Below, piece after piece: positions 47,637 through 63,459 of a stretch of 64,000 nt of DNA. This DNA comes from Candidatus Fervidifonticultor secundus (GTDB lineage: Bacteria; Sysuimicrobiota; Sysuimicrobiia; Sysuimicrobiales; Humicultoraceae). The notes under the pieces were generated by a model that saw only the letters and a program-made list of their open reading frames with translations, ran no database searches and was not told where the DNA came from. Position numbers and translations under genes: made by a program. Each line of letters starts with the position of its first letter. Within the stretch, counting starts at the first letter, position 1. The DNA is taken from positions 64,001 to 128,000 of the forward strand of contig JAVKIP010000005.1 in assembly GCA_031459385.1 (NCBI GenBank), in the 5' to 3' direction.

Positions 47637-48278
47637 TCAGGCCCCCGCTTCCTTGGCCTCGAGCTTCTTCTTGATGCGCTTCAGGCGGAAGACGTCCTCG
47701 CGGGCACGCTGCTCCAGCACCGACGAGATGTACCGGGTCTCCATGCGCAGCCGCGGGATGACCACCTGCTCCAGGGCGTTGACCCGCCGCGTGGTCTTCT
47801 TGATCTCCTCGCCGATCTTGCGCAGCTTGATCTCGGTGGCCGCCACGGCCAGGATGGCGCTCACCACTTCCTCGAACTGGCTCGTGCTCTCCATGGTGCG
47901 CGCGCTGGTGGCCACCGGGTTCTGCCCGCGCTCCAGCAGCGGCCGCCGGACGTCGGTGATGGCCACCTCCGGGATCTTCGTGCCCCAGACGTTCCGGATC
48001 GCGATGTTCAGCAGCACGTCCCGCTGCGCCGGGATGGCGGCCGCCTCCAGCGCCTCGCGGCCCTCGAAGGCCTTGGCCAGGGTCAGCATCACGTAGGCCT
48101 CGCGACAGGCGGCACTGAGCCGTTGGCGGGCCTGGAGCGACTCGCGGACGATCTTGAAGAAGTCGGCCACCAGCGCGTCGCGCTTGCGCTTGAGCAGATC
48201 CACGCCCTGCTGCGCGACGCGCAGCTGGTTGCGCCGCTGCAGCAGGTTCATGCGAGTCGGGCTGATGACTTCCGCCAT
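47637..48278 (-). CDS. V/A-type ATP synthase subunit D
   Basis: PTRMNL, LLKRKRDAL, TRRVNALE motifs. Confidence 0.95.
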   Translation of the reverse strand: MAEVISPTRMNLLQRRNQLRVAQQGVDLLKRKRDALVADFFKIVRESLQARQRLSAACREAYVMLTLAKAFEGREALEAAAIPAQRDVLLNIAIRNVWGTKIPEVAITDVRRPLLERGQNPVATSARTMESTSQFEEVVSAILAVAATEIKLRKIGEEIKKTTRRVNALEQVVIPRLRMETRYISSVLEQRAREDVFRLKRIKKKLEAKEAGA

Positions 48279-48347
48279 GCGCGCTCCTCGGCTCCCGTCA
48301 GCGCCCGGGCCGTGGCGCCGCCCCCGGCGCGGCGCCGGCCCCCGACG

Positions 48348-49763
48348 TCACAGCCGGACCTTCTCCTCCCAGAGCTGCTCCATCTGCTCGCCGAAGTAGT
48401 ACCGGTCCACGTGATCCTGCTTGATGCGCTTGAGCTCGCCTTTGGGGAACATCGACAGCAGCTTCCAGCCCATCGTCAGGGTGTCCTCGATGGACCGGTC
48501 GGTCTGGCCCTGGCCCAGGAACTCGCGCTCGAACACCTCAGCGAACTTCAGGTAGAGCCGGTCCCGATCGGTCAGCGCCTCCTCGCCGATGATGGCCACC
48601 AGGCGGCGGAGGTCCACGCCGTTGGCGTACGACGCGAAGAGCTGGTCCTTGACGTTGGCATGGTCGGCGCGGGTCCGCCCGGGTCCGATGCCGTCGTTCA
48701 TCAGGCGCGACAGGCTCGGCAGCGGGTTGATGGGCGGGTAGATCCCGTTGCGGTGCAACGCCCGGCTCAGCACGATCTGCCCCTCGGTGATGTAGCCGGT
48801 GAGGTCCGGGATCGGGTGGGTGATGTCGTCGTCGGGCATGGTGAGGATCGGCAGCTGGGTGATGGAGCCTTTGCGGCCGTGGATGCGGCCCGCCCGCTCG
48901 TAGATCGTGGCCAGGTCGGTGTACATGTAGCCGGGGTAGCCGCGCCGGCCCGGGATCTCCTCTCGGGCGGCCCCGATCTCCCGCAGGGCCTCGCAGTAGT
49001 TGGTCATGTCCGTCAGAATGACCAGCACCTGCATCTCCAGCTCGAACGCCAGGTACTCGGCCGTGGTCAGTGCCACGCGGGGGGTCATGAGCCGCTCGAT
49101 GGCCGGGTCGTCAGCCAGATTGAGGAAGACGACGCTGCGGGCCAGGGCACCGGTCGACTCGAACTGCTCGATGAAGTACGCCGCCTCGCGTTGGGTAATG
49201 CCCATGGCGCCGAAGACCACCGAGAACTCCTCGCCCTCGCCGCGCACCTTGGCCTGGCGGGCGATCTGGGCGGCCAGCTCGTTGTGGGGCAGGCCGGCAC
49301 CCGAGAAGATCGGGAGCTTCTGGCCGCGCACCAGCGTGTTCAGGCCGTCGATGGCCGAGATGCCGGACTGGATGAACTCCTGGGGCCGCTGCCGCGCCAC
49401 GGGGTTGATGGGCGCGCCCACCACCGGCAGGCGCTTCTCGGGGATGATGGGCGGCAGCCCGTCGATGGGATCGCCCAGGCCGTTGAACCGGCGGCCGATC
49501 ATCTCCCGCGAGACGCCGATCCGCGCCACGTCCTCGCGCAGGCTCACCGACGTGTTGGCCAGGTCCAGTCCCGCCGTCTCCTCGAAGACCTGGATGACCG
49601 CCACCTTCTCCGAGGCCTCGATCACCTGCCCGCCCCGGGTGCTGCCGTCGGGCAGGTGGATGTTGACGATGGCGCCGTAGGGCAGGTCCGCTGCCCCTTC
49701 CACGAACAGCAGCGGGCCCGAGATGTACGAGATGGACTGGTACTGCTTGGTCGCCAGCTCCAT
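48348..49763 (-). CDS. V/A-type ATP synthase subunit B
   Basis: [41 protein letters not shown] motifs. Confidence 0.97.
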
Positions 49764-49768
49764 GCCCC

Positions 49769-51526
49769 CTACCCTCCCGCTGCGGCCTTGGCCCCGAACG
49801 CCTCCGGGAGCCGCTCGAACCAGGTCGTGATGTACGCGCCGAACTGGTCGTTGGGCACTTCCTTCATGCGGGCGATCTCCTCGATCTGCTTCAGGTTCAG
49901 GATCTCGTCCATGAGCACGCCCCGCCGCAGCGCCGCGCTGGCCTCGTCGTAGAACGCGATGATGGCCTTGAGCATCCCGTAGGCCTTCTCCATGGAGCAG
50001 TAGGCGTCCACCTCCGAGAACGACGACTGCTGCAGGAAGTCCTCGCGCAGCATCTTGCCGGCCTCGATCACCAGGCGCTGGTCGTCCTGCAGGGCGTCGG
50101 GCCCCACCAGCTGCACGATCTCCTGCAGCTCGGCCTCGCGCTGCAGCAGGGCCGAAGCGCGGTCGCGCAGGGCCTCGAACCCCTCGGGCATGTGCTCCTT
50201 GTACCACTCCCGGAACAGCGGCGTGTACAGGCTGTAGGAGCGCAGCCAGTGGATGGCCGGGAAGTGGCGGCGGTGGGCCAGGCTGGCGTCCAGCGACCAG
50301 AACGTGCCGACGATGCGCAACGTGGCCTGCGTGACCGGCTCGGAGAGGTCCCCGCCCGGCGGCGAGACCGCGCCCACGACGGTCACCGAGCCGTTGCGCT
50401 CCGGCCGTCCCAGGCAGACGGCGCGGCCGGCCCGCTCGTAGAACGCTGCCAGGCGGCTGGACAGGTACGGTGGGTACCCCTCCTCCGCCGGCATCTCCTC
50501 CAGCCGGGACGAGATCTCGCGCATCGCCTCGGCCCACCGGCTGGTGGAGTCGGCCATCAGCGCCACTTTGTAGCCCTGGTCGCGCCAGTACTCGGCCATG
50601 GTGATGCCGGTGTAGACCGACGCCTCCCGGGCCGCCACCGGCATGTTCGACGTGTTGGCGATGATGATCGTGCGCTCCATGAGCGGGCGGCCGCTGCGCG
50701 GGTCCTCCAGCTCCGGGAACTCGTCGAGCACGTGGGTCATCTCGTTGCCGCGCTCGCCGCACCCCACGTAGATGATGACGTCGGCGTTGGACCACTTGGC
50801 CAGCGTCTGCTGCATGACGGTCTTGCCCGAGCCGAAGGGGCCGGGAATGGCTGCCGCGCCGCCCATCGCCACCGGGAAGAGGACGTCGATGATGCGCTGG
50901 CCGGAGATGAACGGCTCCCGCGGGTCCAGCTTGCGCGCCACGGGCCGGGGGACGCGCACGGGCCAGCGGTGCGCCAGCCGGAGCTCCGTACCGTCGTCCA
51001 GGCGGCCGATCACCTCGTCCACGGTGAACTCGCCCGAGCGCAGGTCCGCCAGCGTCCCGCCCCGCACCCCCGGCGGCACCAGGATCCGATGCTGGAACCC
51101 GAACTCCTGCACCCAGCCCAGGACGTCGCCGGGGGCGAGCGCCTGGCCGGGCTGCGCCGTGGCGGTGAACGCCCATTTTTTCGTGCGGTCGAGGGCCTCG
51201 GTCATCGCGCCGCGTGCGATGAAATCGCCCTTCTGGCGCCGCACGCTCTCCAGCGGCCGCTGGATGCCGTCGAAGATCGACGTGAGCAGTCCGGGCCCCA
51301 GCTCCAGCGACAGCGGCGAGCCGGTGGTGACCAGCGGCTCGCCGACCTGCAGCCCCGAGGTATCCTCGTAGACCTGGATGAAGGCGGTGGCCCCGTCCAG
51401 GCGGATGATCTCACCCAGCAGGCCCTCGCGTCCCACGCGGACCAGATCGTACATCCGCGCCCCGGGGATTCCCCGGGCGATGACCGCCGGTCCGGCGATC
51501 TTGATGATCTCGCCCTGCGTCGCCAT
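49769..51526 (-). CDS. V/A-type ATP synthase subunit A
   Basis: [30 protein letters not shown]; no intein. Confidence 0.98.
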
Positions 51527-51537
51527 CGCCCTGCCTC

Positions 51538-51855
51538 CTACCGCAGCTTCACGTAGAACCCGATGTGCTCCTTGACCAGCCGCGCCACGTACTGCTCGGC
51601 GCTCTCGACTTCGGCCTCCGGCGCCGGGAACGGCACGATGATCGGCAGATCCCGGCCGCGCAGCAGCCGGGCCCGCTCATCGGCGGTGCCCTGGAGCAGC
51701 GCCTCGTTGATGGCCACCAGACCGTAGTCCAGGGCCACGAACTGCCGCAGGTGCTCCAGGGCCTCCTGCGGCGTGGCCGCCTCGTGCACCTCCACGCCGG
51801 CCAGCCGGAAACCCGTGGCCGTCTCGGGGTCGGTGATGACGCCGAACCTATACAA
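51538..51855 (-). CDS. V/A-type ATP synthase subunit F
   Basis: [15 protein letters not shown] at the C-terminus; TTG start. Confidence 0.92.
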
Positions 51856-52879
51856 GGAGCATCTCCCGGCGCACCTGCTCCTTCGGCAGGCCGAAGACCT
51901 TGCCCCGCGCAATCAGCCGCAGGTTCGCCACCTCCGCGGTCTTCATGGCCAGGAAGCCCACGACGATGTCGATACCCAGCGGGTCGCCTAGGTAGTAACG
52001 CACCAGCGTCCTGGCCACATGATAGTCCAGCTCCCGCTCGAACGCCACGAGATCGCGGGGCAGCTCCTTCACCGGGAAGCCGTGCACCCGCAGCCGCTCC
52101 CAGGCCGCAGCCTGCGTCTGGCTGCTCGACAGCCCCAGGAACAGCTTGTCGGTGACGATGGCACCGCCGGGGATGTAGAACTGCAGCCGCCGGGCCTCGG
52201 GCAGCGGTCCGGCCAGGGCCAGCTTGAGCGCCGTCTTGACGTCGGCGGCATCGATCTCGGCCCGGAAGACCTCGCGCAGCACCTCGGCGTCGTGCCCCCG
52301 TCTGGCCGCGCGCGCCAGGCCCCAGTCCGCGTAGGCACGCTCCAGCCGCAGCTCCAGCGCCATCAGGTCCTGGTCCTGCGCGTACGCCGCGACCCCTTCG
52401 GCCAGTGGGCCCGCCAGCGGGTGGTTGACGGCCTCCAGCGTGCCGGCCAGCGCCGCCATGTCGGGGTAGCCCGCCATCTCCTTCAGGAGCGTCTCGCTGA
52501 GGTTGCCGGCCGGCACCAGCGCCGCGACGATCTCATCTGCGGGGCGGCCGGCGTGCTTCCCGCGGACGATGGCCCGCAGGTTCTGCAGGTCCCAGCGCAG
52601 CAGCAGCGTCTCCAGCAGCGTGCGCGCCTGGCCGTCGGCGAAGCTCAGGATCGCCCGCGTCGTGCGCTGCAGGTTGTGGGCCAGCGCCTCGTCGACGGCC
52701 CGCACGCCCTGGGTGCGGACCAGCGCCTCCTGCAGATCCTCGCCGTAAGGCGTGGTCGCCAGCGCCTGGAGGAACGCGTCGAAGGTCGCGGCCCCCAGCA
52801 GCTCCTCCAGGCGTCCGGCCGACAACAGCCGGCTGCGCATGGCTCGCACCCGCGCGTTGATGTAGGGGAAGTCCGGCAT
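51848..52879 (-). CDS. V/A-type ATP synthase subunit C (d)
   Basis: YINARVRAMRSRLL, WDLQNL, EVANLRLIARGK motifs. Confidence 0.93.
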   Translation of the reverse strand: MPDFPYINARVRAMRSRLLSAGRLEELLGAATFDAFLQALATTPYGEDLQEALVRTQGVRAVDEALAHNLQRTTRAILSFADGQARTLLETLLLRWDLQNLRAIVRGKHAGRPADEIVAALVPAGNLSETLLKEMAGYPDMAALAGTLEAVNHPLAGPLAEGVAAYAQDQDLMALELRLERAYADWGLARAARRGHDAEVLREVFRAEIDAADVKTALKLALAGPLPEARRLQFYIPGGAIVTDKLFLGLSSSQTQAAAWERLRVHGFPVKELPRDLVAFERELDYHVARTLVRYYLGDPLGIDIVVGFLAMKTAEVANLRLIARGKVFGLPKEQVRREMLLV

Positions 52880-52891
52880 GCGCGCGGGCGC

Positions 52892-53470
52892 CTACTCCCA
52901 GAGCAGGCGTGCGATCTCGCCGGCGAGCATCGGGCGCGCGCGCTCCAGCCGCGACGCCAGGGTATTGGTGACGACGAACCGGCCGTCGGCCGAGGCGACC
53001 CGCGCGCCGCCCCGCACCGCCGGGTCGGTCGTGACCCGCACCTGCCAGCCGTGCCGGCGCACCACGGCCTGCGCCACCGGTGCATCCGCGGGGTGGACGG
53101 TGATCACCGCCGCGCTCCCCAGGCTGGCCACGGCTTCCTCGATGAACGTCTGCAGGGCCGCCGGGTAGGCCTGGGCATCCTGGCCCAGCCGCGCCAGTTC
53201 GGCCTCGGCCTCGGCGAAGACCTTCCCGATCTCCTCCTCTTTGGCCCGGAGCACCAGCGACGTGGCGCGCAGCTGCGCGGTGCTCTGCGCCTTGGTCATG
53301 GCCGCCCGGTACTCGGCCTCCAGCCGCTCGCGGTGGCGAGCCACCAGCTCAGCGGCCTGCTGCCGCGCCGCAGCCACGATGGCCTCGGCCTGGGTGCGGG
53401 CCTCGGCGAGAATCTGCTCGCGCTCTGCCTGGGCCTCCCGCTCGAGGAGGGCGATCAGCTCTGACGCCAT
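52892..53470 (-). CDS. V/A-type ATP synthase subunit E
   Basis: Coiled coil plus GG...NTL C-domain; operon position. Confidence 0.9.
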   Translation of the reverse strand: MASELIALLEREAQAEREQILAEARTQAEAIVAAARQQAAELVARHRERLEAEYRAAMTKAQSTAQLRATSLVLRAKEEEIGKVFAEAEAELARLGQDAQAYPAALQTFIEEAVASLGSAAVITVHPADAPVAQAVVRRHGWQVRVTTDPAVRGGARVASADGRFVVTNTLASRLERARPMLAGEIARLLWE

Positions 53471-53485
53471 GACGCCGCCCGGGGG

Positions 53486-53806
53486 CTAGAGCCGGCCGAC
53501 GATGAAGAAGGCCACGAGGAAGCCGAAGATGATGAGCGTCTCGGGCAGGACCAGGAAGATCAGCATCTGGCCGCCGATCTCGGGCCGCTCGGCCATGGCG
53601 CCCGCCGCCGCTGAGCCGATGCGCGACTGCGCCCACGCGGTGCCGATGGCGCCGCCGAAGACCGCCAGGGCGGCGGCCAGGGCCATCAGCCCGTGCGCCA
53701 TGGTGATCTGGCGCGCGCCCTCGGCCGGGGTCTCGGCCGCCAGGGCAGGGCTCGCGACCGTCAGCGCCACCAGGGTGAGCATCAGCGCAAGCAGGACCGT
53801 CTTCAA
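53486..53806 (-). CDS. V/A-type ATP synthase proteolipid subunit K (c)
   Basis: AQSRIG...AERPE...LPET; leader ending ALA; TTG start after GGAGG. Confidence 0.93.
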   Translation of the reverse strand: MKTVLLALMLTLVALTVASPALAAETPAEGARQITMAHGLMALAAALAVFGGAIGTAWAQSRIGSAAAGAMAERPEIGGQMLIFLVLPETLIIFGFLVAFFIVGRL

Positions 53807-53807
53807 G

Positions 53808-55778
53808 CTAGTCACCTCCTGTTTTCTGGAGCGGCTGGTACGACGTGCCGGTCTCATCGTGGTACTTGACCTTGGTGAGGAACTCGACCCAGTTGAGACG
53901 GGCGGGCTGGATGATGTGGCCGGCGATCGTGAAGAGGAAGAAGATCATCTGGAACGCGATGCCGGCCAGCACGCCGATCCACACCGGCCCCAGCTGGCCG
54001 CCCAGCTCATTGGCGACGTTGGCCAGCACGGCCGCGGCCAGCCCCACGCCGAACAACCGGGCGTAGGACAGCACGTTGCCCATGCCCGAGATCGCCTCGA
54101 GCAGCCACATCAGGGCGAACCGGCTCACCACGACGCCGAGGGCGACGAACACCACGAAGGCCCCCAACAGCAGCATCCCGGGCCGCTGCACCGCCGCCGG
54201 CAACTGCCCGCCCATGGCGCCCAGCACCGCCACGAGCCCGAGCACGCCGGTCAACATCGCCAGCGACTCGAGCACGCCGAAGGTGTGCCGGTGCCGCAGC
54301 GCCACGACCAGGTGCAGCACGTAGCCCAGCACGATCTGCACCAGCCCCAACGCCACGGTGAACTTGAAGAACGCAATGGTCAACTCGACGCGGTTGAAGA
54401 GCGGATGGAGCCCGAAGTAGTGCTCGAGCAGGTTCCCGAACACCTCGAGGTACAGCACGCCGAAGATCATCGCCCAGGCGGCCAGGATGCGGATGATCCA
54501 CGACGCGTCGGCCAGGGCCGCGGGCCCCAGCTTCATGCCCAGCTGCACCGGGCCGACCCCCACCTCCCACGTCTCGCCGCGCCGGGCCTTGGCGCGCAGC
54601 CACCAGCCGAACGCGAAGAGCAAGGCGCCGTAGGCTACGTCGCCGATGACGATGCCGACGAACAGGGGGAAGAAGACCGCCAGGAAGATCGTGGGATCCA
54701 GGCTGCCGTAGCGCGGCGGCTTGAACAGGGCCAGCATGCGCTGGAACGGCCGGATCGGCGCGGGATTGTCCAGCAGCACGGGCACGTGCGCCGCCTCGTG
54801 GGGGTCGGCCGGCGCGTCGTAGACGACCACGTCGTGGGCAAAGCGCCTGCGCAGCACGCCGCGCACCTCGGCGACGCGCGGTGCCGGCACCCAGCCGTGG
54901 AGGATGAAGGTGTAGCGCGACTGGGCCAGCTGCGGCAGCGCGCGCAGCTGTGCCAGGCGGTCGGCCACCTCGGCGCGGATCGCCGCCACCTGCGGCCGGT
55001 ACCGCCGGGCCACCTCCTCCAGCTGGCGGCCGATCGCCTCCAGCTCGGCCGGCAGCTCGGCCCGACGGCGCTCCATGAGCCGCACCGCCTCCAGCGGCGG
55101 GTACGACGCGTAGCGCGCCGGCAGCCGCAGTTCGGAGATGCCGGCCTGGGTGAGGAAGCCCCGGACGGCCTCGGCATCGCGGTGCAGGTAGGCCACCACC
55201 ACGCCGATCTTGCCTTCCTCGATGATCCGGCTGACGACCTCGACGCGCCCGCCCGTGAGCGCCGTGAGCTGGTGGCGCAGCGCCTGGACCACGGCCAGGT
55301 CTTTGCCGCGCATGATGAAGCCCACGGACTCGAAGTTCCGGCTGCCCTGGAGCGCGCCCAGCAGGGGGGAGAGGACGCGCACCGCGCCCTCGTAGGTCCG
55401 GATGAGCTCCAGCTCCTCCTGGGCGTCCAGCCGGCGGCGCACCAGCGCCTGCACGTCGGCCTCGATGGCGGCCACCGCGGCGTCCAGAGCGGCCTCGTTG
55501 GCCCCAGCGATCGCCGCGGCGTCGGCCGCCGGTCCGCCGCCCGCCAGGGGTCCGCCGGCCGGCAGCAGCTTCAGCAGCCCGTCGGCCCGCATCAGCAGCC
55601 GCTCGAGGACCTGCTGCCGGGCGGCCGTGGCGTCGTCCACCTCCACCGCGCCCGCCGGGGCTTCCTCGGCCTCGATGCGGTCGACGTGCACGACGCCCAG
55701 GCGCTGCACCTCGTCCAGCACCGAGCCCAGCAGCCGCTTGGGCCCGAACACCAGTACCCGGTGCATCTCGACGATCAC
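53808..55778 (-). CDS. V/A-type ATP synthase subunit I (a)
   Basis: DPT, GDVAYG, LSYARL, RLNWVEF motifs. Confidence 0.95.
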   Translation of the reverse strand: MIVEMHRVLVFGPKRLLGSVLDEVQRLGVVHVDRIEAEEAPAGAVEVDDATAARQQVLERLLMRADGLLKLLPAGGPLAGGGPAADAAAIAGANEAALDAAVAAIEADVQALVRRRLDAQEELELIRTYEGAVRVLSPLLGALQGSRNFESVGFIMRGKDLAVVQALRHQLTALTGGRVEVVSRIIEEGKIGVVVAYLHRDAEAVRGFLTQAGISELRLPARYASYPPLEAVRLMERRRAELPAELEAIGRQLEEVARRYRPQVAAIRAEVADRLAQLRALPQLAQSRYTFILHGWVPAPRVAEVRGVLRRRFAHDVVVYDAPADPHEAAHVPVLLDNPAPIRPFQRMLALFKPPRYGSLDPTIFLAVFFPLFVGIVIGDVAYGALLFAFGWWLRAKARRGETWEVGVGPVQLGMKLGPAALADASWIIRILAAWAMIFGVLYLEVFGNLLEHYFGLHPLFNRVELTIAFFKFTVALGLVQIVLGYVLHLVVALRHRHTFGVLESLAMLTGVLGLVAVLGAMGGQLPAAVQRPGMLLLGAFVVFVALGVVVSRFALMWLLEAISGMGNVLSYARLFGVGLAAAVLANVANELGGQLGPVWIGVLAGIAFQMIFFLFTIAGHIIQPARLNWVEFLTKVKYHDETGTSYQPLQKTGGD

Positions 55779-56137
55779 GCGGGCCTCCCGCGCACCACGC
55801 GATCCACCACCAGCCGGACAGCGCGTGCGCGGTGCGCGGCCGCCTGGCGCCGCAGCGCCTCCACCTCCTGCTGCGCCCGCGCGTGGTACTGCGCCTGGAT
55901 CTGCGCCGTCTCGGCCGCGAGCCGCTCCTCGTGCTGGCGCGACAGCGCCGCCGCTTCCTCCCGCGCCTGCTGGAGGATCTGCTCGGCCTCGGCACGCGCG
56001 CGGGCCAGCAGCGCGGCGGCCTCCTGCCGCGCCGCGGACACCGTGACCTCGAGTTCCTTTTCCTTGAGAGCGATCAGCTGAAGGAGATTCTCGTCTTTGC
56101 GGTCGTCGTGCCCATGACCAGCCTTCTGCGCGCTCAT
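55775..56137 (-). CDS. V/A-type ATP synthase subunit G/H
   Basis: Ala/Glu/Arg coiled coil; first gene of the operon; coupled to subunit I. Confidence 0.8.
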   Translation of the reverse strand: MSAQKAGHGHDDRKDENLLQLIALKEKELEVTVSAARQEAAALLARARAEAEQILQQAREEAAALSRQHEERLAAETAQIQAQYHARAQQEVEALRRQAAAHRARAVRLVVDRVVRGRPA

Positions 56138-56211
56138 TCGGCCTGCCCCTTGGGAACCCGTCGCAAGAAACCCCCAGGTCGCCTCACCCTGGGGGCACAC
56201 ACACCGCCCGC

Positions 56212-56240
56212 AGGATAGCAAACGCCCCGGGGGGCGTCAA
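56212..56240 (-). promoter_or_regulatory. Sigma70 promoter of the ATP synthase operon
   Basis: TTGACG-N17-TATCCT with TG extension. Confidence 0.7.
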
Positions 56241-56321: not shown

Positions 56322-57764
56322 TTAGAACCGGGCCAGGAGCCCCGCCGTCCGCACCAGCTCGATGAAGGGCTGGGGGAAGACGCCCACGAGCAGCGTGCCC
56401 ACGGCCGCCACGCCCAGCGCCAGCCGCAGCGGCGCGGGCTCCCCCAGCGCCGTCGGCGACGTCGGCGGCAGCAGGTACATGACGCGGATGACGTTCACGT
56501 AGTAGTAGAGGGCGATCACGCTGTTCACCACGCCCACCGCCGCCAGCCACAGCAGCCCGTTGTTGATGGCGGCGCCGAACAGGTAGAACTTGCCGAGGAA
56601 ACCCGCCGTGGGCGGAATGCCCGTTAGCGACAGCATGAACAGCGCCATGAGGGCCGCCAGGCCTGGGGCGCGCTGGGCCAGGCCCGCGTAGTCGGGGATC
56701 GCGTCGGAGCCCAGCCGCTGCCCCACGACGATGGCCACGAAGAACGCGCCCAGGTTGGTGAAGGTGTAGGCCAGCACGTACAGCAGCAGGCCCGGGGTCC
56801 CGAAGTCGCCCTGGTAGGCCGCCACGCCGATGAGCAGGAAGCCGGCGTGGGAGATGCTGGAATAGGCCAGCATGCGCTTGATGTTCCGCTGGGGCAGCGC
56901 CAGCAGGTTCCCCAGGGTCATGCTCAGCGCCGACAGTCCGGCGATCAACGTGATCCAGTCCACGGAGGTGGGCGCCAGGGCCACCACCAGCAGGCGCACC
57001 AGCGCTGCGAAGCCGGCGGCCTTGGACGCCACCGAGAGGTAGGCGGCGATCGGCGTCGGCGCGCCCTCGTAGACGTCGGGCGTCCACTGGTGGAACGGCA
57101 CCATAGAGATCTTGAACCCAAACCCTGCCAGCGACAGCACCAGCGCCACCACCACGGCCGGCTGCGGCGCGGCCCGGAGCTTGGTGGCGATGGCGTACAG
57201 GTTGGTCTCACCGGTCAGACCGTAGAGCACCGAGAAGCCGTACAGCATCACCGCCGAGGCGCCGGCACCGAACAGGAAGTACTTGATGCCCGCCTCGGTA
57301 CTGCGCGCGTCGGCCTTCAAGTAGCCCGCCAGCACGTAGGACGTCAGGCTCACGAACTCGATGGCCAGGGCCAGGAGGATCAGATCAGCGCTGCCGGCCA
57401 TGAGCACGAGGCCCAGGGCCGTGAAGACCAGCAGCGCGTACAGCTCGCCCTCGTGGGCGGTCTGGCCCCTGAAGTAGTCCATGGCCGACAGCGTCACGAG
57501 CACAGTGGACCCCACGACCACCAGTTTGAAGAAGGTCGCGAAGCCGTCCACCGCGTAGGTGTTGAAGAAGACGGTGCGGACCGGCTCCCCCAGCATGCTC
57601 ACGATGGGCCCGAGCCCCAGCACGAGGCCCACCACCGCCGCCCAGCCCACCACCGTCTTGCGGCCCGCGGGCAGCGCCAGGTCCAGCACCAGCAGGACCA
57701 GCCCGAGGGCCGTCAGCCAGTACTCGGGGCGCAGCGCCCAGAGCTCTTCCCGCGGAAAGGGCAT
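56322..57764 (-). CDS. nuoN: Complex I subunit N
   Basis: EAGIKYF, FKISMVPFHQWTPDVYEGAP, KRMLAYSSISH motifs. Confidence 0.95.
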   Translation of the reverse strand: MPFPREELWALRPEYWLTALGLVLLVLDLALPAGRKTVVGWAAVVGLVLGLGPIVSMLGEPVRTVFFNTYAVDGFATFFKLVVVGSTVLVTLSAMDYFRGQTAHEGELYALLVFTALGLVLMAGSADLILLALAIEFVSLTSYVLAGYLKADARSTEAGIKYFLFGAGASAVMLYGFSVLYGLTGETNLYAIATKLRAAPQPAVVVALVLSLAGFGFKISMVPFHQWTPDVYEGAPTPIAAYLSVASKAAGFAALVRLLVVALAPTSVDWITLIAGLSALSMTLGNLLALPQRNIKRMLAYSSISHAGFLLIGVAAYQGDFGTPGLLLYVLAYTFTNLGAFFVAIVVGQRLGSDAIPDYAGLAQRAPGLAALMALFMLSLTGIPPTAGFLGKFYLFGAAINNGLLWLAAVGVVNSVIALYYYVNVIRVMYLLPPTSPTALGEPAPLRLALGVAAVGTLLVGVFPQPFIELVRTAGLLARF

Positions 57765-57776
57765 GGCGGCCGCCCT

Positions 57777-59282
57777 CTAGCGCAGCGCGGTGACCAGAAC
57801 GGTCATGGCGCCGTTGATCACGTCCAGCAGCGGGCGGGGGTAGACGCCGAAGACCAGCATCAGCGCCGCCAGCGGCACCAGCGCCATCGCCTCGCGCCGG
57901 TCGAGGTCGGCCAACATGGCCCACTTCGGGTTCAGCGGGCCGAGGAAGATGCGCTGGATCGTCCAGAGGAACATGGCGGCCGAGAAGATCACGCCGGTCA
58001 CGGCGATGACGGTCAGCTCCGGGAAGATGCCGAAGGCGCCCACGAAGATGAGGAACTCGGCGACGAAGCCCATGAGCCCCGGCAGGCCCAGCGACGCCAG
58101 CATGGCCATGGTGGTGATCCCGGTGTACACCGGCAGCACCGCACCCAGGCCGCCGAAGTCGTCCACCCCGCGGGTGTGCGTCCGGTAGTCGTAGATCACG
58201 CCCACGATGAGGAACAGCGCGCCAGTGATGATGCCGTGAGCGATCATCTCGAAGACCGCACCGTTGAGGGCCATGGTGGCAGCGGCCGCCTTCTCCGGCA
58301 TCCCCACGGCCGCGGCGGCCGCGGCCGTGCCCAGCATGACGTAGCCCATGTGGTTGACGCTGGAGTAGGCCACGAGCTTCTTCAGGTCGGGCTGCGCCAT
58401 GGCCACCAGGGCGCCGTAGACGATGCCCACCAGGGCCAGCACCGCCACCACCGGCGCGTAGGCTTTGAACGCCTCGGGCAGCATGGGCAGGCTGACGCGC
58501 ACGAAGCCGTAAGTGCCCATCTTCAGCAGGATGCCCGCCAGGATCACACTGCCCGCCGTGGGGGCCTCGACGTGCGCGTCGGGCAGCCACGTGTGGAACG
58601 GCCACATGGGCACCTTGATGGCGAACGAGAGGAAGAAGCCCCAGAACGCCAGGGCCGCCAGCAGCGGCGCCCTGGCCAGCGGCTGCTGCTTGATGAGGTC
58701 GAGGATGCTGAATGTGCGCGGGTCGCTGTTGAAATAGAGCAGCAGGATCGCCAGCAGCATGGCCAGCGAGCCCACCAGCGTATAGAGGAAGAACTTGATG
58801 GCGGCGTACTCACGCCGCGGCCCACCCCAGATGCCGATGAGGAAGTACATGGGCACCAGGGTGATCTCCCAGAAGACATAGAAGAGGAAGAAGTCCAGGG
58901 CCACGAAGACGCCGTTCATGCCCGTCTCGAGCAGCAGGAACAGGAACAGGTATTCCTTCACCCGGTGGTCAACGCGCCACGAGTAGACGACGGAGAGCGC
59001 CGTCAGCAGCGTCGTGAGGATCAGCAGCGGCAGGCTCAGGCCGTCGATGCCCAGATGGTAGTTGATCCCCGCCGCGGGGATCCACGGCACCAGCGTCTCC
59101 AGCTGCATGCCCGGCCGGCCTACCTCGAAGGGGACCAGCACGTATACCGAGACCAGGAACGTGGCCAGCGAGGCGACCAGCGCCACCCAGCGCATCGACT
59201 CCTCGCCGCCCTTGGGGATGAGCAGCACGATCGCCCCCCCGACCAGCGGGAGGAAGACCGTGGTCGTCAGCAGCCAGTCCAT
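57777..59282 (-). CDS. nuoM: Complex I subunit M
   Basis: FWEITLVP, KVPMWPFHTWLPDAHVEAP, LLKMG, FVAE motifs. Confidence 0.95.
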   Translation of the reverse strand: MDWLLTTTVFLPLVGGAIVLLIPKGGEESMRWVALVASLATFLVSVYVLVPFEVGRPGMQLETLVPWIPAAGINYHLGIDGLSLPLLILTTLLTALSVVYSWRVDHRVKEYLFLFLLLETGMNGVFVALDFFLFYVFWEITLVPMYFLIGIWGGPRREYAAIKFFLYTLVGSLAMLLAILLLYFNSDPRTFSILDLIKQQPLARAPLLAALAFWGFFLSFAIKVPMWPFHTWLPDAHVEAPTAGSVILAGILLKMGTYGFVRVSLPMLPEAFKAYAPVVAVLALVGIVYGALVAMAQPDLKKLVAYSSVNHMGYVMLGTAAAAAAVGMPEKAAAATMALNGAVFEMIAHGIITGALFLIVGVIYDYRTHTRGVDDFGGLGAVLPVYTGITTMAMLASLGLPGLMGFVAEFLIFVGAFGIFPELTVIAVTGVIFSAAMFLWTIQRIFLGPLNPKWAMLADLDRREAMALVPLAALMLVFGVYPRPLLDVINGAMTVLVTALR

Positions 59283-59330
59283 CCCGATGCGTTCCTCCTC
59301 GTTCCTCCTCTGTGGCGTCCCGCGCGCCCC

Positions 59331-61277
59331 TCAGCGGGCCAGCCCGACCGCTAGCAGGACGATCACGCCCAGCGCGATGGCCAGCAGGTAGTTCTGCGCA
59401 CGGCCGGTCTGCACGACCCGCAGCAGGGTCCCCACCGTGCCCACCACGTAGCCGAGCAAATTGACCAGCCCGTCGACAACGTGCAGGTCGATGATGCGGT
59501 AGAGTCGGGCCAGCCCCACGATCCCCAGCCCGATGAGGTTCACCGCGGTGTCGACGATGTAGGTATCGAAGACGCGCAGGGCGCCGGCCGCCCACAGCGT
59601 CGTGCGCACGAAGACCCAGCCGTACAACTCGTCGACGAAGTACTTCCGGCTCACCAGCACGTACAGCGGGCCCGCGGCCCGCCGCAGGGTCGCAGACGGC
59701 ACGACCTTCCAGTGGTAGACGGCGGCCGCGGCCAGCATCCCGACACCGGCGACGCCCAGCGAGGCCAGCGCCAGCGCCGGGTCGAAGGCCGCCGCTTCCA
59801 CGCCTTCCAGGTGCAGGAAGCCGTGGAAGGGGTTGCCCAGGGGGGGCGCGCCCACGAATCCGATGACCGCCGAGAAGGCCGCCAGGATCCACAGCGGCCA
59901 GGTCATCACGGGCGGGCTCTCGTGGGGGTGCGCGTCATGCGCCCACCGCGGCGTTCCCGTGAAGACGTAGAAGATCACCCGGAAGACGTAGAAGGCGGTG
60001 AAGAACGAGGTCAGGGCGCCCAGGGCGAACAACGCGGGGCTGCGATGGAGGGCCTCGAGCAGGATCTCGTCCTTGCTCCAGAACCCCGAGAACGGAAAGA
60101 CGCCAGCGAGCGCCAGTCCCCCGACAACGAAGGTCCAGTACGTCGACGGCATGAGTTTCGCAAGGCCGCCCATCGCCTTGATGTCGTTGGTGTGCATGGC
60201 GTGCAGCACGCTGCCAGCGGCCAGGAACAGCAGGGCCTTGAAGAAGGCGTGGGTGACCAGGTGGAACATCCCCGCCGTATACCCGCCTGCGCCCAGCCCC
60301 AGCATCATCAGGCCGAGCTGGCTGATGGTCGAATAGGCCAACACCCGCTTCATATCGTCCTGCGTCACGCCCATGGTCGCGGCCATGAGGGCGGTGATGC
60401 CGCCGACCCAGGCGACCACCTCTAAGGCCTCCCGGCCGGGCGACGACAGGAACAGCGTGAAGGTCCGCGCCACCAGGTAGACGCCGGCGGCCACCATCGT
60501 TGCCGCGTGAATCAGCGCCGAGACGGGGGACGGACCTTCCATCGCATCCGGCAACCAGGTGTGGAGCGGCACCTGGGCCGACTTGCCGACCGCGCCGCCG
60601 AAGAGGAGCACGGCGGCCACGGTGAGCAGCGGCAGCCCGCCCACGGTCCGGCCCTGCAGCGCGCCGTCGCGGACCCTGGCGAAGATCTCCTCGAAGCGGA
60701 ACGTCCCCAGGGTCGCGAAGAGCACGAGGATCCCCAGGAACATGAAGAAGTCGCCGACGCGGGTCGTGACGAACGCCTTCAACGATGCCCGCGCCGCCGA
60801 GGGCTTTTCGAAGTAGAACCCGATCAGCAGGTAGGAGCACAACCCCACCAGTTCCCACCCGGCATACAGGAACAGCAGGTTGTTGGCCAGGACCAAGAGG
60901 AGCATGGAGAAGCCGAACAGCGACACGTAGGCGAAGAACCGGGGAAAGCGCGGGTGGCCGTGCATGTAGCCGATGGAGTACACGAAGATGAGCGTGCCGA
61001 CCACCGTCACCACCAGCATCATGACCGTGCTGAGCGGGTCGACCCGGAGCCCCAGGTCCAGGGGGACGTCGCCCACCACCATCCACCGGAGGTTCAGCTC
61101 CAGCGGCTCGGGTGTTTGCAGCATCTCGGCAAACACGCCCAGGGCCAGCACACCCGAGAGCGCCATGGCCGCCACGGCCACGTAGGCGCCGCTTCCCGTC
61201 AGCCGCCGCCCGAAGGCGATGATGAGCCCGCACGCCGCCAGCGGGAAGAGCGGAATCAGCCAGGCCAGCTCACGCAT
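59331..61277 (-). CDS. nuoL: Complex I subunit L (extended transverse helix)
   Basis: GWE, RVGD, GKSAQVPLHTWLPDAMEGP, HAFFKALLF, SKDEI, QTG motifs. Confidence 0.96.
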   Translation of the reverse strand: MRELAWLIPLFPLAACGLIIAFGRRLTGSGAYVAVAAMALSGVLALGVFAEMLQTPEPLELNLRWMVVGDVPLDLGLRVDPLSTVMMLVVTVVGTLIFVYSIGYMHGHPRFPRFFAYVSLFGFSMLLLVLANNLLFLYAGWELVGLCSYLLIGFYFEKPSAARASLKAFVTTRVGDFFMFLGILVLFATLGTFRFEEIFARVRDGALQGRTVGGLPLLTVAAVLLFGGAVGKSAQVPLHTWLPDAMEGPSPVSALIHAATMVAAGVYLVARTFTLFLSSPGREALEVVAWVGGITALMAATMGVTQDDMKRVLAYSTISQLGLMMLGLGAGGYTAGMFHLVTHAFFKALLFLAAGSVLHAMHTNDIKAMGGLAKLMPSTYWTFVVGGLALAGVFPFSGFWSKDEILLEALHRSPALFALGALTSFFTAFYVFRVIFYVFTGTPRWAHDAHPHESPPVMTWPLWILAAFSAVIGFVGAPPLGNPFHGFLHLEGVEAAAFDPALALASLGVAGVGMLAAAAVYHWKVVPSATLRRAAGPLYVLVSRKYFVDELYGWVFVRTTLWAAGALRVFDTYIVDTAVNLIGLGIVGLARLYRIIDLHVVDGLVNLLGYVVGTVGTLLRVVQTGRAQNYLLAIALGVIVLLAVGLAR

Positions 61278-61280
61278 CGG

Positions 61281-61592
61281 CTACCACTTCAGCACGTTGA
61301 TCTGGTCCACATGCACGGTCTCCAGGTTGCGGTAGGCGGCCATGACCAGGGCCAGGCCCACCCCGGCCTCGCACGCCGCCAGCGTGATGACCACCAGCGC
61401 GAAGACCTGGCCCGAGAACGCCGCCGGGGCCACGTACTTGTTGAAGGCCACCAGGTTGATATTGGTGGCGTTCAGCATCAGCTCGATACCCATCAGGATG
61501 GCCACCGCGTTCCGCCGGGAGAGCACCGCGTACAGCCCCAGGCAGAACAGCAGGGCGCTCACCACCAGGTAGTGCGACAGCCCGACCTGCAC
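61281..61592 (-). CDS. nuoK: Complex I subunit K
   Basis: [21 protein letters not shown] motifs. Confidence 0.95.
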
Positions 61593-61604: not shown

Positions 61605-62096
61605 CTACCGGTCGCGCCTGGCGACGATGATGGCCCCTATCAGCGACACCAGGAGCACCAGGCTCGTCACCTCGAAGACCAGCACCGCGCTGGTCAGGAA
61701 GGTGGTGCCGATGTGCCGGGCGGTGTACTGGGGCAGCGTGCCGCCCGGCTGGGGCCATGTCGTGTTCCCCAGCACCCAGATCAGCAGGCCTGCCAGCGCG
61801 GCGGCCGCCAGCAGGCCCAGGGGCCGCTGTCCGCTGGCCTGCCGGACCCGGGTGCCGGTGCCCCCTTCGGTGAGCATGATGACGAACAGAATCAGCACCG
61901 TAATGGCACCGGCGTAGATCAGCACCTGGATGCCAGCGACGAACTCGGCCTGCAGGAGGATGTAGAGGCCGGTGACGCCCAGGAAGGTCGGGACCAGCGA
62001 GAGCGCCGCCCGGACGATGTTGCCCGAGGTGACCACGACCACCGCCGGTACCAGGGTCACCAGCGCGAGGACGATGAAGGCCGCCAGCTCGCCCAT
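61605..62096 (-). CDS. nuoJ: Complex I subunit J
   Basis: AEFVAGIQVLIYAGAI, FEVTS motifs. Confidence 0.95.
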   Translation of the reverse strand: MGELAAFIVLALVTLVPAVVVVTSGNIVRAALSLVPTFLGVTGLYILLQAEFVAGIQVLIYAGAITVLILFVIMLTEGGTGTRVRQASGQRPLGLLAAAALAGLLIWVLGNTTWPQPGGTLPQYTARHIGTTFLTSAVLVFEVTSLVLLVSLIGAIIVARRDR

Positions 62097-62099
62097 GGC

Positions 62100-63071
62100 T
62101 CAGAAGCTGATCCGGTAGCCGGTGATCAGGATCCACACCAGCCCCGCCGGCAGCAGCAGCTTCCACGACAGGTTCAGCAGCTGGTCCAGGCGCAGCCGCG
62201 GGTACGTCCAGCGCATCCACATCAGGAAGAAGACCACCGCGTACATCTTGAGGAGAAACCAGACGAGCGGCGGCAGCAGGGGGCCCTTCCAGCCGCCGAG
62301 GAACAGCGTGGTGGCCAGGGCCGCCATGGCGAACATCTCCGCGTACTCGCCGAGCTGGAAGAGCGCGAACCGCATGCCCGTGTACTCGGAGAAGTACCCG
62401 GCCACCAGCTCCGACTCCGCCTCGGGCAGGTCGAAGGGCACCCGGTTGACCTCGGCCGTAGCCGCCACCAGGAAGATGACGAACGCGGGGAACTGGCGGA
62501 TCGCGAACGAGCCCAACCAGCCCTGCTGGGCCTCGACGATCCCCACGGTGGACAGCGTGCCCGCCTCCATGGCCACCGCGATCAGAGCCATCCCCATGGG
62601 CAGCTCGTAGCTGATCATCTGGGACGCCGACCGCAGGCCGCCCAGCAGCGCGTACTTGTTGTTGGACGCGAACCCGCCCGCCAGGATCCCGATGACGGTC
62701 AGGGAGGCCATGGCCGCGAAGAACAGCACCCCGATGTTGAGGTCGCGCACGATGAGCCCGGGCCCGAACGGGATCACGACCCAGTCCAGCAGCCCGGCCA
62801 CCGCCACGATGAGCGGGGCGGTGTTGAAGACGGCCACATCCGCGGCGCGGGGAGTGATGTGCTCCTTCTGGAGGAGCTTGATGGTGTCCGCCACGGTCTG
62901 CAGCAACCCCTGGGGGCCCACGTGCTTGGGCCCCAGGCGCGACTGGATCCATCCGCCGATCTTGCGCTCCAGGAGGACGCCCAGCATCGCGGTCACGACC
63001 GCCAGGAACGTGAAGACGACCACGGTGAGGCCTGCGGCCTTGGCCACTTCGAGGGGCCAGTTCACCGTCAT
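62100..63071 (-). CDS. nuoH: Complex I subunit H
   Basis: ERK...Q.R.GP, ADTIKLLQKE, RSASQMISYE, NRVPFDLPEAESELVAG motifs. Confidence 0.97.
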   Translation of the reverse strand: MTVNWPLEVAKAAGLTVVVFTFLAVVTAMLGVLLERKIGGWIQSRLGPKHVGPQGLLQTVADTIKLLQKEHITPRAADVAVFNTAPLIVAVAGLLDWVVIPFGPGLIVRDLNIGVLFFAAMASLTVIGILAGGFASNNKYALLGGLRSASQMISYELPMGMALIAVAMEAGTLSTVGIVEAQQGWLGSFAIRQFPAFVIFLVAATAEVNRVPFDLPEAESELVAGYFSEYTGMRFALFQLGEYAEMFAMAALATTLFLGGWKGPLLPPLVWFLLKMYAVVFFLMWMRWTYPRLRLDQLLNLSWKLLLPAGLVWILITGYRISF

Positions 63072-63099: not shown

Positions 63100-63459
63100 C
63101 TACATCCATTCCAGCGCGCCCTTCCGCCACGCGTAGGCCAGGCCCACCAGCAGGATGACCAGGAAGATCAGCATCTCCACGAACGCGAACTTCCCCAGCT
63201 CCCGGAAGACGATGGCCCAGGGGTAGAGGTAGATGACCTCGACGTCGAAGATGACGAAGACCAGCCCGAACAGGTAGTAGCGCACGTGGAACTGGGCCCA
63301 GGCCTGCCCAAAGGGCACGACGCCCGACTCGTAGGTCATGGTCTTCTGCGGGTGGGGCATGCGCGGGGCCAGGGCCCACACGATCGCCAGCGGCAGGGCC
63401 GCCATAACCAGTCCGCCGACCGCGAACACCCCGACGTACAGCCAGTCCAGCAGCAGCAT
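63100..63459 (-). CDS. nuoA: Complex I subunit A
   Basis: [23 protein letters not shown] motifs. Confidence 0.96.

What the first reader, a model, noticed from the sequence alone, without database searches (positions are those of the whole stretch)
59440..59640. NuoL has the 26-residue '2M-type' helix extension but the operon has only one nuoM
Seen: the transverse helix contains a tandem duplication, FDTYIVDTAVNLIG and IDLHVVDGLVNLLG, offset by exactly 26 aa (78 nt). DELY to QTG spans 77 aa. Known (from recall): this span is about 50 aa in canonical NuoL, and a ~26-aa insertion marks complexes that carry an extra antiporter subunit (second NuoM) and are proposed to pump an extra proton. Inference: either a fourth antiporter subunit comes in trans (perhaps with the missing peripheral arm), or NuoM is built in twice, or this is a relic of a 2M ancestor.
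Basis: partly seen in the sequence, partly recalled or inferred. Interest (0 to 1): 0.8.

Follow-up and report, generated by a model that had tools for sequence, protein, structure and literature searches.

The report
Complex I ruler helix, reused NuoM
The side helix that straps together the proton pumps of respiratory complex I carries one extra 26-residue docking unit here although the operon has only one gene for the pump such a unit spans; this mismatch is common in several bacterial phyla, and the pump is likely built in twice from the single gene.

Summary
NuoL (59331-61277, minus) has two 26-residue units in its lateral helix (span 77 against about 51). The genome has no spare nuoM or mrpD: six antiporter-like genes, two L-M-N sets. 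The missing nuoBDIC lie on another contig with no pump gene.

It is not peculiar to this genome. Long helix with one nuoM is usual in Sysuimicrobiota and common in Anaerolineae, Zixibacteria and Omnitrophota; Yu 2022 noted it, and this scan found it before on other DNA.

Added here:
(1) Spans fall on a 25+26n ladder, from MrpA up to six units.
(2) Both units keep the docking motif in single-nuoM operons but not in true 2M operons.
(3) nuoM has its own stronger Shine-Dalgarno site where a unit is spare (PGLS -3.2 kcal/mol; nuoN unaffected; the paired test was not significant).
(4) Chloroflexi 2M pairs did not arise by local duplication.

Best reading (0.55, inferred; no structure or stoichiometry exists): the helix is a ruler and NuoM is incorporated twice. 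Main rival: tolerated surplus helix (0.25).

The parts
63100..63459 (-). nuoA
   Evidence: ORF; best NCBIfam hits NuoA, below cut-off
62100..63071 (-). nuoH
   Evidence: ORF; NF004741 over cut-off
61605..62096 (-). nuoJ
   Evidence: ORF; best NCBIfam hits NuoJ, below cut-off
61281..61592 (-). nuoK
   Evidence: ORF; NuoK models over cut-off
59331..61277 (-). nuoL, 648 aa, with two-unit lateral helix HL
   Evidence: AlphaFold2 model
59403..59633 (-). lateral helix HL, D549 to G625 (77 aa; about 51 in one-unit NuoL)
   Evidence: predicted helix 545-597 and 602-623, then a final helix 627-647 (TM16 by position)
59493..59570 (-). HL unit 1 (aa 570-595) with D571, D576, V579-N580
   Evidence: D571 and V579 invariant in 53 aligned long NuoL
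59415..59492 (-). HL unit 2 (aa 596-621) with D597, D602, V605-N606; Q623 follows 26 aa after D597
   Evidence: D597 and V605 invariant in 53 aligned long NuoL
59294..59310 (-). two tandem GAGGAGG Shine-Dalgarno-like motifs in the 48-nt nuoL-nuoM gap; strongest predicted site of the seven genes (-11.3 kcal/mol; nuoL -3.0, nuoN -6.6)
   Evidence: sequence; duplex energies
57777..59282 (-). nuoM, single copy, 501 aa; E139, K223, K254 and E409 invariant (TM5, TM7, TM8, TM12 residues by recalled homology)
   Evidence: TIGR01972 over cut-off; invariant columns
56322..57764 (-). nuoN
   Evidence: TIGR01770 over cut-off

Best explanation
This is the membrane-arm operon of an 11-subunit complex I (its nuoBDIC genes lie on another contig) whose NuoL lateral helix has two 26-residue units instead of one, and the helix likely acts as a ruler that lets the one nuoM gene product be built in twice (L-M-M-N). 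Shown: the duplication, the single nuoM, no spare pump gene, the 26-residue length ladder, motif retention in both units, and the separate strong nuoM ribosome-binding site. Inferred: each unit (about 39 A) docks on one NuoM; NuoM packs head-to-tail on itself, its TM12 Glu facing the next copy's TM5 Glu as in the normal M-L contact; nuoM is translated at more than 1:1; the enzyme would move about one more proton per turnover. That would suit a low-potential donor such as ferredoxin or reverse electron flow; the donor is unknown.
For: Ladder: MrpA (one neighbour) 25 (one sequence); ordinary NuoL 48-54; true 2M 78-80; single-nuoM forms 77-82, 103-104, 132; of 147 measured unique NuoL none lie at 55-76 or 83-99. 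In 150 family representatives found with the helix left out of the query, 110 were measurable: 49 long, 60 ordinary, 1 at 25 after correcting five mis-anchored rows by eye, none at 56-76. Motif D-x4/5-D-x2-V-[ND] intact in both units in single-nuoM operons: Sysuimicrobiota 40/40 and 40/40, Zixibacteria group 10/10 and 10/10, Anaerolineae 22/23 and 19/23, Omnitrophota 24/26 and 23/26; in 2M operons 0/10 and 1/10. Translation: nuoL overlaps nuoM in 2 of 80 spare-unit operons against 14-16 of 16 in the family that lost the unit; nuoM site at or below -8 kcal/mol in 69/80, against 0/16 in that family, 1/22 in the ordinary operons of the same phylum and 5/18 in 2M. PGLS on 238 operons: nuoM -3.2 +/- 0.8 kcal/mol, p 1.5e-4; nuoN p 0.3. 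Out-of-sample Omnitrophota -7.7 (n=26) against -4.4 (n=4). No other antiporter-like gene in G000, G112, G255, G243, G217. The Chloroflexi 2M pair is not a local duplication (Ma+Mb clade rejected, p 4e-54), and 2M NuoL lies inside the single-nuoM long-helix group (p 0.019).
Against: No structure, stoichiometry or proton count exists for any such complex; no solved chain matched both units. The independent-pairs test of the ribosome-site signal was not significant (7 pairs, median p 0.125-0.5); only about 10 state changes underlie the PGLS; the -8 cut was chosen after seeing data. Three- and four-unit operons show no further nuoM advantage (nuoM strongest in 2 of 5). Strong nuoM sites also occur with one unit: 13/13 in the phylum of the Limnochordales genome and 17-19 of 34 in other lineages; only 7 of 26 long Omnitrophota reach -8. 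Unit number is labile (three-unit close kin of a four-unit NuoL) and reaches 5-6, hard to credit as 7-8 pumps. HL tolerates looped-out hydrophilic inserts (spans 69, 100, 118). A degenerate +29 insert occurs in single-nuoM operons of the canonical G-H-I-J-K-L-M-N type.
Confidence: 0.55

Rival explanations
1. The complex is an ordinary three-pump L-M-N arm. The extra amphipathic unit bulges out or lies on the membrane surface, and further units arise by unequal recombination between repeats and are tolerated.
For: Unit number is labile and reaches 5-6, with near-identical neighbouring units in some. Hydrophilic loops are tolerated in HL. Units are amphipathic. The model has a low-confidence break at 596-601.
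Against: It does not explain why the first step is 26-27 in lineages that do not form one clade (10-13 state changes), why both units keep invariant Asp/Val across phyla while 2M units lose the motif, or why nuoM but not nuoN gains a stronger, uncoupled start. The model has unit 1 as a continuous helix.
Confidence: 0.25
2. The fourth pump comes in trans: NuoM of the genome's other (14-subunit) complex I, or an Mrp-type subunit, fills the second slot.
For: All 41 relatives searched have a second NuoM match. Many have further antiporter-like genes; in G002 the extra pair is Mrp-like. G026 has a third NuoM that I did not follow up. True 2M complexes do pair unrelated NuoM.
Against: G112, G255, G243 and G217 have a long helix and only three antiporter-like genes. 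G107, G140 and G088 (4, 3, 3 units) have L, M, N plus one distant partial hit. The short-helix family has the same second complex. These are MAGs and may miss genes.
Confidence: 0.08
3. Relic: the lineage descends from a 2M ancestor, lost one nuoM and kept the long helix.
For: Same split layout (membrane arm apart from nuoBCDI) as Chloroflexi 2M (PMC7117926 passage). The window's NuoM groups with the L-side M of 2M operons. A clade of single-nuoM Anaerolineae NuoL excluding 2M is not rejected (p 0.31), and a foreign origin of the 2M NuoN is not established (p 0.27).
Against: It needs repeated loss of the same second M in Zixibacteria, Sysuimicrobiota and Anaerolineae against one gain. Single-nuoM units are better conserved than 2M units. 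It cannot produce 3-6 units. No tandem nuoM in 41 Zixibacteria or 41 Sysuimicrobiota genomes.
Confidence: 0.07
4. The spare unit docks on something else, such as the NuoM of a second complex (a dimer) or an unknown small membrane protein.
For: It would account for motif retention. In family f1 the glycine of unit 1 is often replaced by a larger residue.
Against: It does not predict the nuoM-specific start signal or the match to 2M length. No extra nuo-like gene was annotated between L, M and N in the operons (only nuo genes were annotated).
Confidence: 0.05

Closest known systems
2M complex I (Chadwick et al. 2018, ISME J 12:2668; not held, known through passages in PMC9040806, PMC7117926, PMC6606698, PMC7300363)
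   Same: NuoL helix longer by about 26 aa (77 here, 78-80 in Anaerolineae 2M); membrane arm split from nuoBCDI as in Chloroflexi; no nuoEFG at either locus.
   Different: One nuoM gene. Both helix units keep the full motif, whereas 2M units have drifted. nuoM has its own strong start.
Complex_I_1 and Complex_I_2 NuoL of Ca. Manganitrophaceae (Yu et al. 2022, PMC9040806, passage)
   Same: [quoted passage not shown]
   Different: Different phylum. The passages read do not propose reuse of one NuoM, 3-6 units or a translation signal. Fig. S2 could not be seen.
Canonical NuoL/NdhF1 (E. coli 3RKO, T. elongatus 6HUM) and the genome's own 14-subunit complex on C23
   Same: Fold, conserved charged residues, one HL motif followed by QTG and TM16.
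   Different: One unit only (span 48-53); nuoM start often overlapping or abutting the nuoL stop.
Mrp antiporter MrpA (PMC7419157, passages)
   Same: HL from TM15 to TM16 braces the complex and links TM7 of neighbouring antiporter-like subunits.
   Different: Spans one neighbour; the MrpA-like protein of G002 has span 25, the zero-unit rung.

Membership tests
2M complex I | NuoL lateral helix lengthened by about 26 aa | tested here: met
   span 77 against 51-52
2M complex I | second nuoM gene in the cluster | tested here: not met
   A-H-J-K-L-M-N; six antiporter-like genes in the genome, two L-M-N sets
2M complex I | four antiporter-like subunits in the assembled enzyme / extra proton pumped | not testable with these tools
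   needs structure, stoichiometry or H+/e- measurement
2M complex I (Chloroflexi type) | nuoBCDI separate from the membrane-arm operon | tested here: met
   B-D-I-C on C58:114074-116880; same four-gene block in 5 of 5 relatives
2M complex I (Chloroflexi type) | subunits branch inside the 2M clade | tested here: not met
   Sysuimicrobiota L, M and N each form their own clade (99-100), next to Anaerolineae, not inside the 2M clade
11-subunit complex I without NADH module | A, B, C, D, H, I, J, K, L, M, N present, no nuoEFG at either locus | tested here: met
   pairing of the two loci is inferred from complementarity and co-occurrence
11-subunit complex I without NADH module | electron donor other than NADH (e.g. 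ferredoxin) | not testable with these tools
   a Rieske ferredoxin gene abuts nuoB only in this genus among 5 relatives; an E-F-G-like cluster on C13 was not analysed
Mrp antiporter | MrpA-type short HL and Mrp subunit set | tested here: not met
   span 77 against 25; best models are NuoL/M/N

The most novel reading that the evidence does not exclude
The NuoL lateral helix is a modular tape measure: each 26-residue unit admits one more copy of the same NuoM, so a 78-nt duplication alone turns a three-pump complex I into a four-, five- or six-pump one without a new gene. Such homo-repeated arms are widespread in uncultured anaerobes, and the published two-gene 2M complexes are later derivatives in which a foreign NuoM took a pre-existing slot.
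Probability: 0.5. Interest if true: 0.88.

Novelty: new variant of a known kind. Interest (0 to 1): 0.62.

Why it matters
If right, gene counting underestimates proton-pumping capacity. Close to half of the NuoL families nearest this query carry a long helix, and the operons inspected mostly have one nuoM. The H+/2e- ratio of complex I would then be tunable by one short duplication. It would give a natural series (3, 4, 5, 6 pumps) for the open question of how quinone chemistry couples to distant pumps, and a stepwise route to 2M complexes. If wrong, the long helix cannot be used as a marker of extra pumping, which corrects a published rule. The locus itself is an ordinary member of this class.

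Tried and rejected
Complex prediction of the NuoL helix with two trimmed NuoM copies: no answer, score 0.00 in both runs, controls not folded; not used as evidence either way.

Orphan nuoM/mrpD in G000: none at E 1e-3 or by PF00361.

Assembly artefact: rejected (conserved in 50 related sequences).

Promoter/terminator scan: nothing above shuffles.

The metagenome scan was run with the antisense frame of a four-unit NuoL; it still returned 80 nuoL-type loci, which I used only as a helix-blind sample. Operon context for most 3-6-unit proteins therefore stays open. The PDB search was out of frame and was repeated correctly.

repeat positions were mis-indexed; one search replaces them. The TM5 pattern was mis-anchored and is not used.

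Family search around the four-unit genome found no further NuoL in 3 relatives.

AU tests that failed to reject: single-nuoM Anaerolineae NuoL as a clade (p 0.31); 2M NuoN with single-nuoM Anaerolineae NuoN (p 0.27).

Chadwick 2018 and Li 2014 were not held, and Fig. S2 of Yu 2022 was not readable; either of the first and last may already discuss single-nuoM long helices in more detail.

Full report
Observation. The minus strand carries nuoA-H-J-K-L-M-N at 63459-56322. NuoL is 648 aa. The quoted repeats start at residues 570 and 596, and DELY to QTG spans 77. Relative to the solved NdhF1 the net insertion is 26; E. coli spans 48 and the genome's other NuoL 52. The offset-26 self-match beat 300 of 300 shuffles, and the two 78-nt units share 37-40 bases. 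D571, D597 and Q623 are each 26 apart; 26 helical residues are 39 A. AlphaFold2 with 53 sequences (mean pLDDT 87.8) gives a continuous helix 545-597, a low-confidence break, helix 602-623 and a final helix 627-647; the orientation of the tail is not reliable in a monomer.

Genome. G000 is 97.6% complete, 5.5% contaminated; record titles of its relatives place it in Sysuimicrobiota (CSP1-3). It has exactly two L-M-N sets: this one and a full 14-subunit operon on C23. The missing quinone module, B-D-I-C, is on C58 with no antiporter gene; the same block occurs in 5 of 5 relatives tested. Of 41 genomes, 37 have two NuoM matches and 4 have three: three are fragments or a broken gene, and one (G026) is unexplained. 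Ten of 31 genomes of the long-helix families have exactly six PF00361 hits; the rest have 7-12, inspected only in G002, where the extra pair is Mrp-like.

Distribution. Span 77 was found in 50 unique Sysuimicrobiota-type sequences from five families. Family f4 has the same operon with span 51 in 17 of 17. In the class of an Anaerolineae-titled genome, 15 of 61 genomes have tandem nuoM. I fetched 40 loci from that hit list, blind to helix length but favouring non-canonical NuoM: 10 were 2M (span 78-80), 27 single-nuoM with 2, 3 or 4 units (23, 3, 1), 2 ordinary, 1 unmeasured. None of 41 Zixibacteria-phylum genomes has tandem nuoM, yet 13 loci of that group span 77-78, ten with one M then N (two titles name other phyla). 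In Omnitrophota 26 of the 30 best loci are long, with N directly after M in 24 (two end at a contig edge); in Dehalococcoidia 1 of 28. G112, G255, G243 and G217 hold only three antiporter-like genes. Yu et al. 2022 noted such inserts in Manganitrophaceae complexes (PMC9040806, passages). This scan noted the feature on other genomes: one note read it as no fourth pump, several as unexplained. I treat those notes as leads only.

Length ladder. Among 151 unique NuoL, 147 were measurable: 41 at 48-54, 101 at 77-82, one at 100 (two units plus a hydrophilic loop), three at 103-104, one at 132. Among 211 proteins from two helix-region searches (biased to long forms; 8 unmeasured), 33 lie at 103-105, 16 at 129-135 and 3 at 155-181, with two off-ladder loop inserts at 69 and 118. 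A search with only the first 480 residues gave 150 representatives: 110 measurable, 49 long, 60 ordinary, 1 at 25 after five hand corrections. An MrpA-like protein spans 25, and in the Mrp structure HL links TM7 of neighbouring antiporter-like subunits (PMC7419157, passages). The rungs 25, 51, 77 thus match one, two and three neighbours where the neighbour count is known from structure or genes. Caveat: once a repeat exists, unequal recombination alone gives multiples of 26.

Motif. Both units keep D-x4/5-D-x2-V-[ND] in single-nuoM operons (40/40 and 40/40; 10/10 and 10/10; 22/23 and 19/23; 24/26 and 23/26) but not in 2M operons (0/10 and 1/10). D571, V579, D597 and V605 are invariant in 53 long NuoL. 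By position the first Asp matches E. coli NuoL D563, recalled as a NuoM contact; I found no held paper for it. Two identical docking sites fit two identical partners, and drifted sites fit two different NuoM. The 2M sample is essentially one lineage.

History. With the helix excluded, 2M NuoL nest among single-nuoM Anaerolineae. Holding Sysuimicrobiota plus single-nuoM Anaerolineae together without 2M is rejected (p 0.019); holding the Anaerolineae alone is not (p 0.31). The L-side M of 2M groups with single-nuoM long-helix M, and the N-side M with one-unit lineages; a joint clade is rejected (p 4e-54). 2M NuoN also falls outside, but not significantly (p 0.27). One gain of a foreign M in a long-helix lineage is more parsimonious than repeated loss. 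These were quick LG+G4 trees on 52-59 of the rows, rooted on E. coli.

Translation signal. Subunits needed in more copies are usually translated more (proportional synthesis, recalled; paper not held), so I tested this prediction after forming the hypothesis. In the window nuoM has a 48-nt gap with two GAGGAGG motifs, the strongest site of seven genes. Over 80 spare-unit operons nuoM is 3.8-4.0 kcal/mol stronger than the mean of nuoL and nuoN, against 0.2-0.3 in 72 one-unit operons and about zero in 18 2M operons (the three +29 operons were kept apart). nuoL overlaps nuoM in 2/80 against 14-16/16 in f4 (two ways of calling starts). PGLS on 238 operons gives -3.2 +/- 0.8 for nuoM (p 1.5e-4) and no effect on nuoN (p 0.3), with 10 minimum state changes. 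Against this: independent pairs on 173 operons gave 7 pairs, about 3.7 with and 0.1 against for the best criterion, median p 0.125. Three- and four-unit operons show no further rise (2 of 5 strongest). One-unit operons of the Limnochordales phylum have strong sites in 13/13, though 10 abut or overlap nuoL; long Omnitrophota average -7.7 against -4.4 in 4 short ones. Duplex energy is only a proxy for initiation.

Mechanism. Most likely (0.55) the helix sets arm length and one NuoM is placed twice, N-M-M-L. The charged relay would stay valid: NuoM keeps E139 and E409, and a TM12-Glu to TM5-Glu contact is the normal M-L junction (established knowledge; inter-subunit contact described). Shown: sequence features and correlations. 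Inferred: docking, self-packing, stoichiometry, the extra proton. Rivals: tolerated surplus helix (0.25), pump in trans (0.08), relic (0.07), another partner (0.05). The five- and six-unit forms are the hardest fact for the ruler reading.

Known systems and novelty. It works like 2M complex I by helix length but is not a member, because the second nuoM gene is absent. It is an 11-subunit complex I split over two loci, a layout described for Chloroflexi 2M (PMC7117926, passage; 2M also described in PMC6606698 and PMC7300363, passages). The phylum paper has no 'nuo' mention in its main text (PMC11604079, term search). Seven searches of the held library (listings only, apart from the papers named) showed no paper proposing reuse of one NuoM or helices of three or more units. 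Chadwick 2018 could not be read and may cover part of this. Verdict: a real, widespread, unexplained variant; ordinary as a locus, interesting as a class, now with a testable mechanism. Interest 0.62.

Noticed in passing
G000:C58:113762-116880 (L003:9763-12887): Rieske [2Fe-2S] ferredoxin gene directly before nuoB-D-I-C, the quinone module of the window's complex; adjacent in the same-genus G002 but not seen within 1.5 kb in 4 other relatives.
   Followed up: partly
G000:C23:62573-76696 (L001): A second, complete 14-subunit complex I operon with a one-unit NuoL helix.
   Followed up: yes
G000:C13:1399-4111 (L004): Separate nuoE/F/G-like cluster, possibly a formate dehydrogenase diaphorase module or an input module.
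   Followed up: no
window 47637-56221 (-): An A/V-type ATPase operon, by inspection of the ORFs, follows nuoN on the same strand; not scanned against families.
   Followed up: no
L046-L049, L143-L147, L296-L303 (family f4): One Sysuimicrobiota family has the same split operon with exactly one unit fewer (span 51, 17 of 17) and nuoM re-coupled to the nuoL stop; likely a secondary loss.
   Followed up: yes
L175 (G107), L172, L176, L177; proteins P0099, P0176, P0087: Three- and four-unit helices in single-nuoM Anaerolineae operons, and proteins with spans 155-181 (five to six units) without operon context.
   Followed up: partly
L218, L225, L310, L312: Operons of the canonical type (G-H-I-J-K-L-M-N where the flank is held) with a degenerate +29 helix insert and no second nuoM in view.
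   Followed up: partly
L212, L214, L216: An independent 2M arrangement (A-B-C-D-I-H-J-K-L-M-M-N where complete) with span 77 and degenerate unit motifs.
   Followed up: no
L076:10135-10908 (same locus as G003:C34): nuoM of the long-helix operon is broken into pieces in this one genome; assembly error or real loss not resolved.
   Followed up: no
protein P0325 (621 aa): NuoL-like protein with span 25 (zero units), suggesting a two-pump arm.
   Followed up: no
L040, L063 (family f2): NuoH carries an insertion of about 50 aa before its last helix.
   Followed up: no
G026:C49:100-1518: A third full-length NuoM at a contig start in one relative.
   Followed up: no
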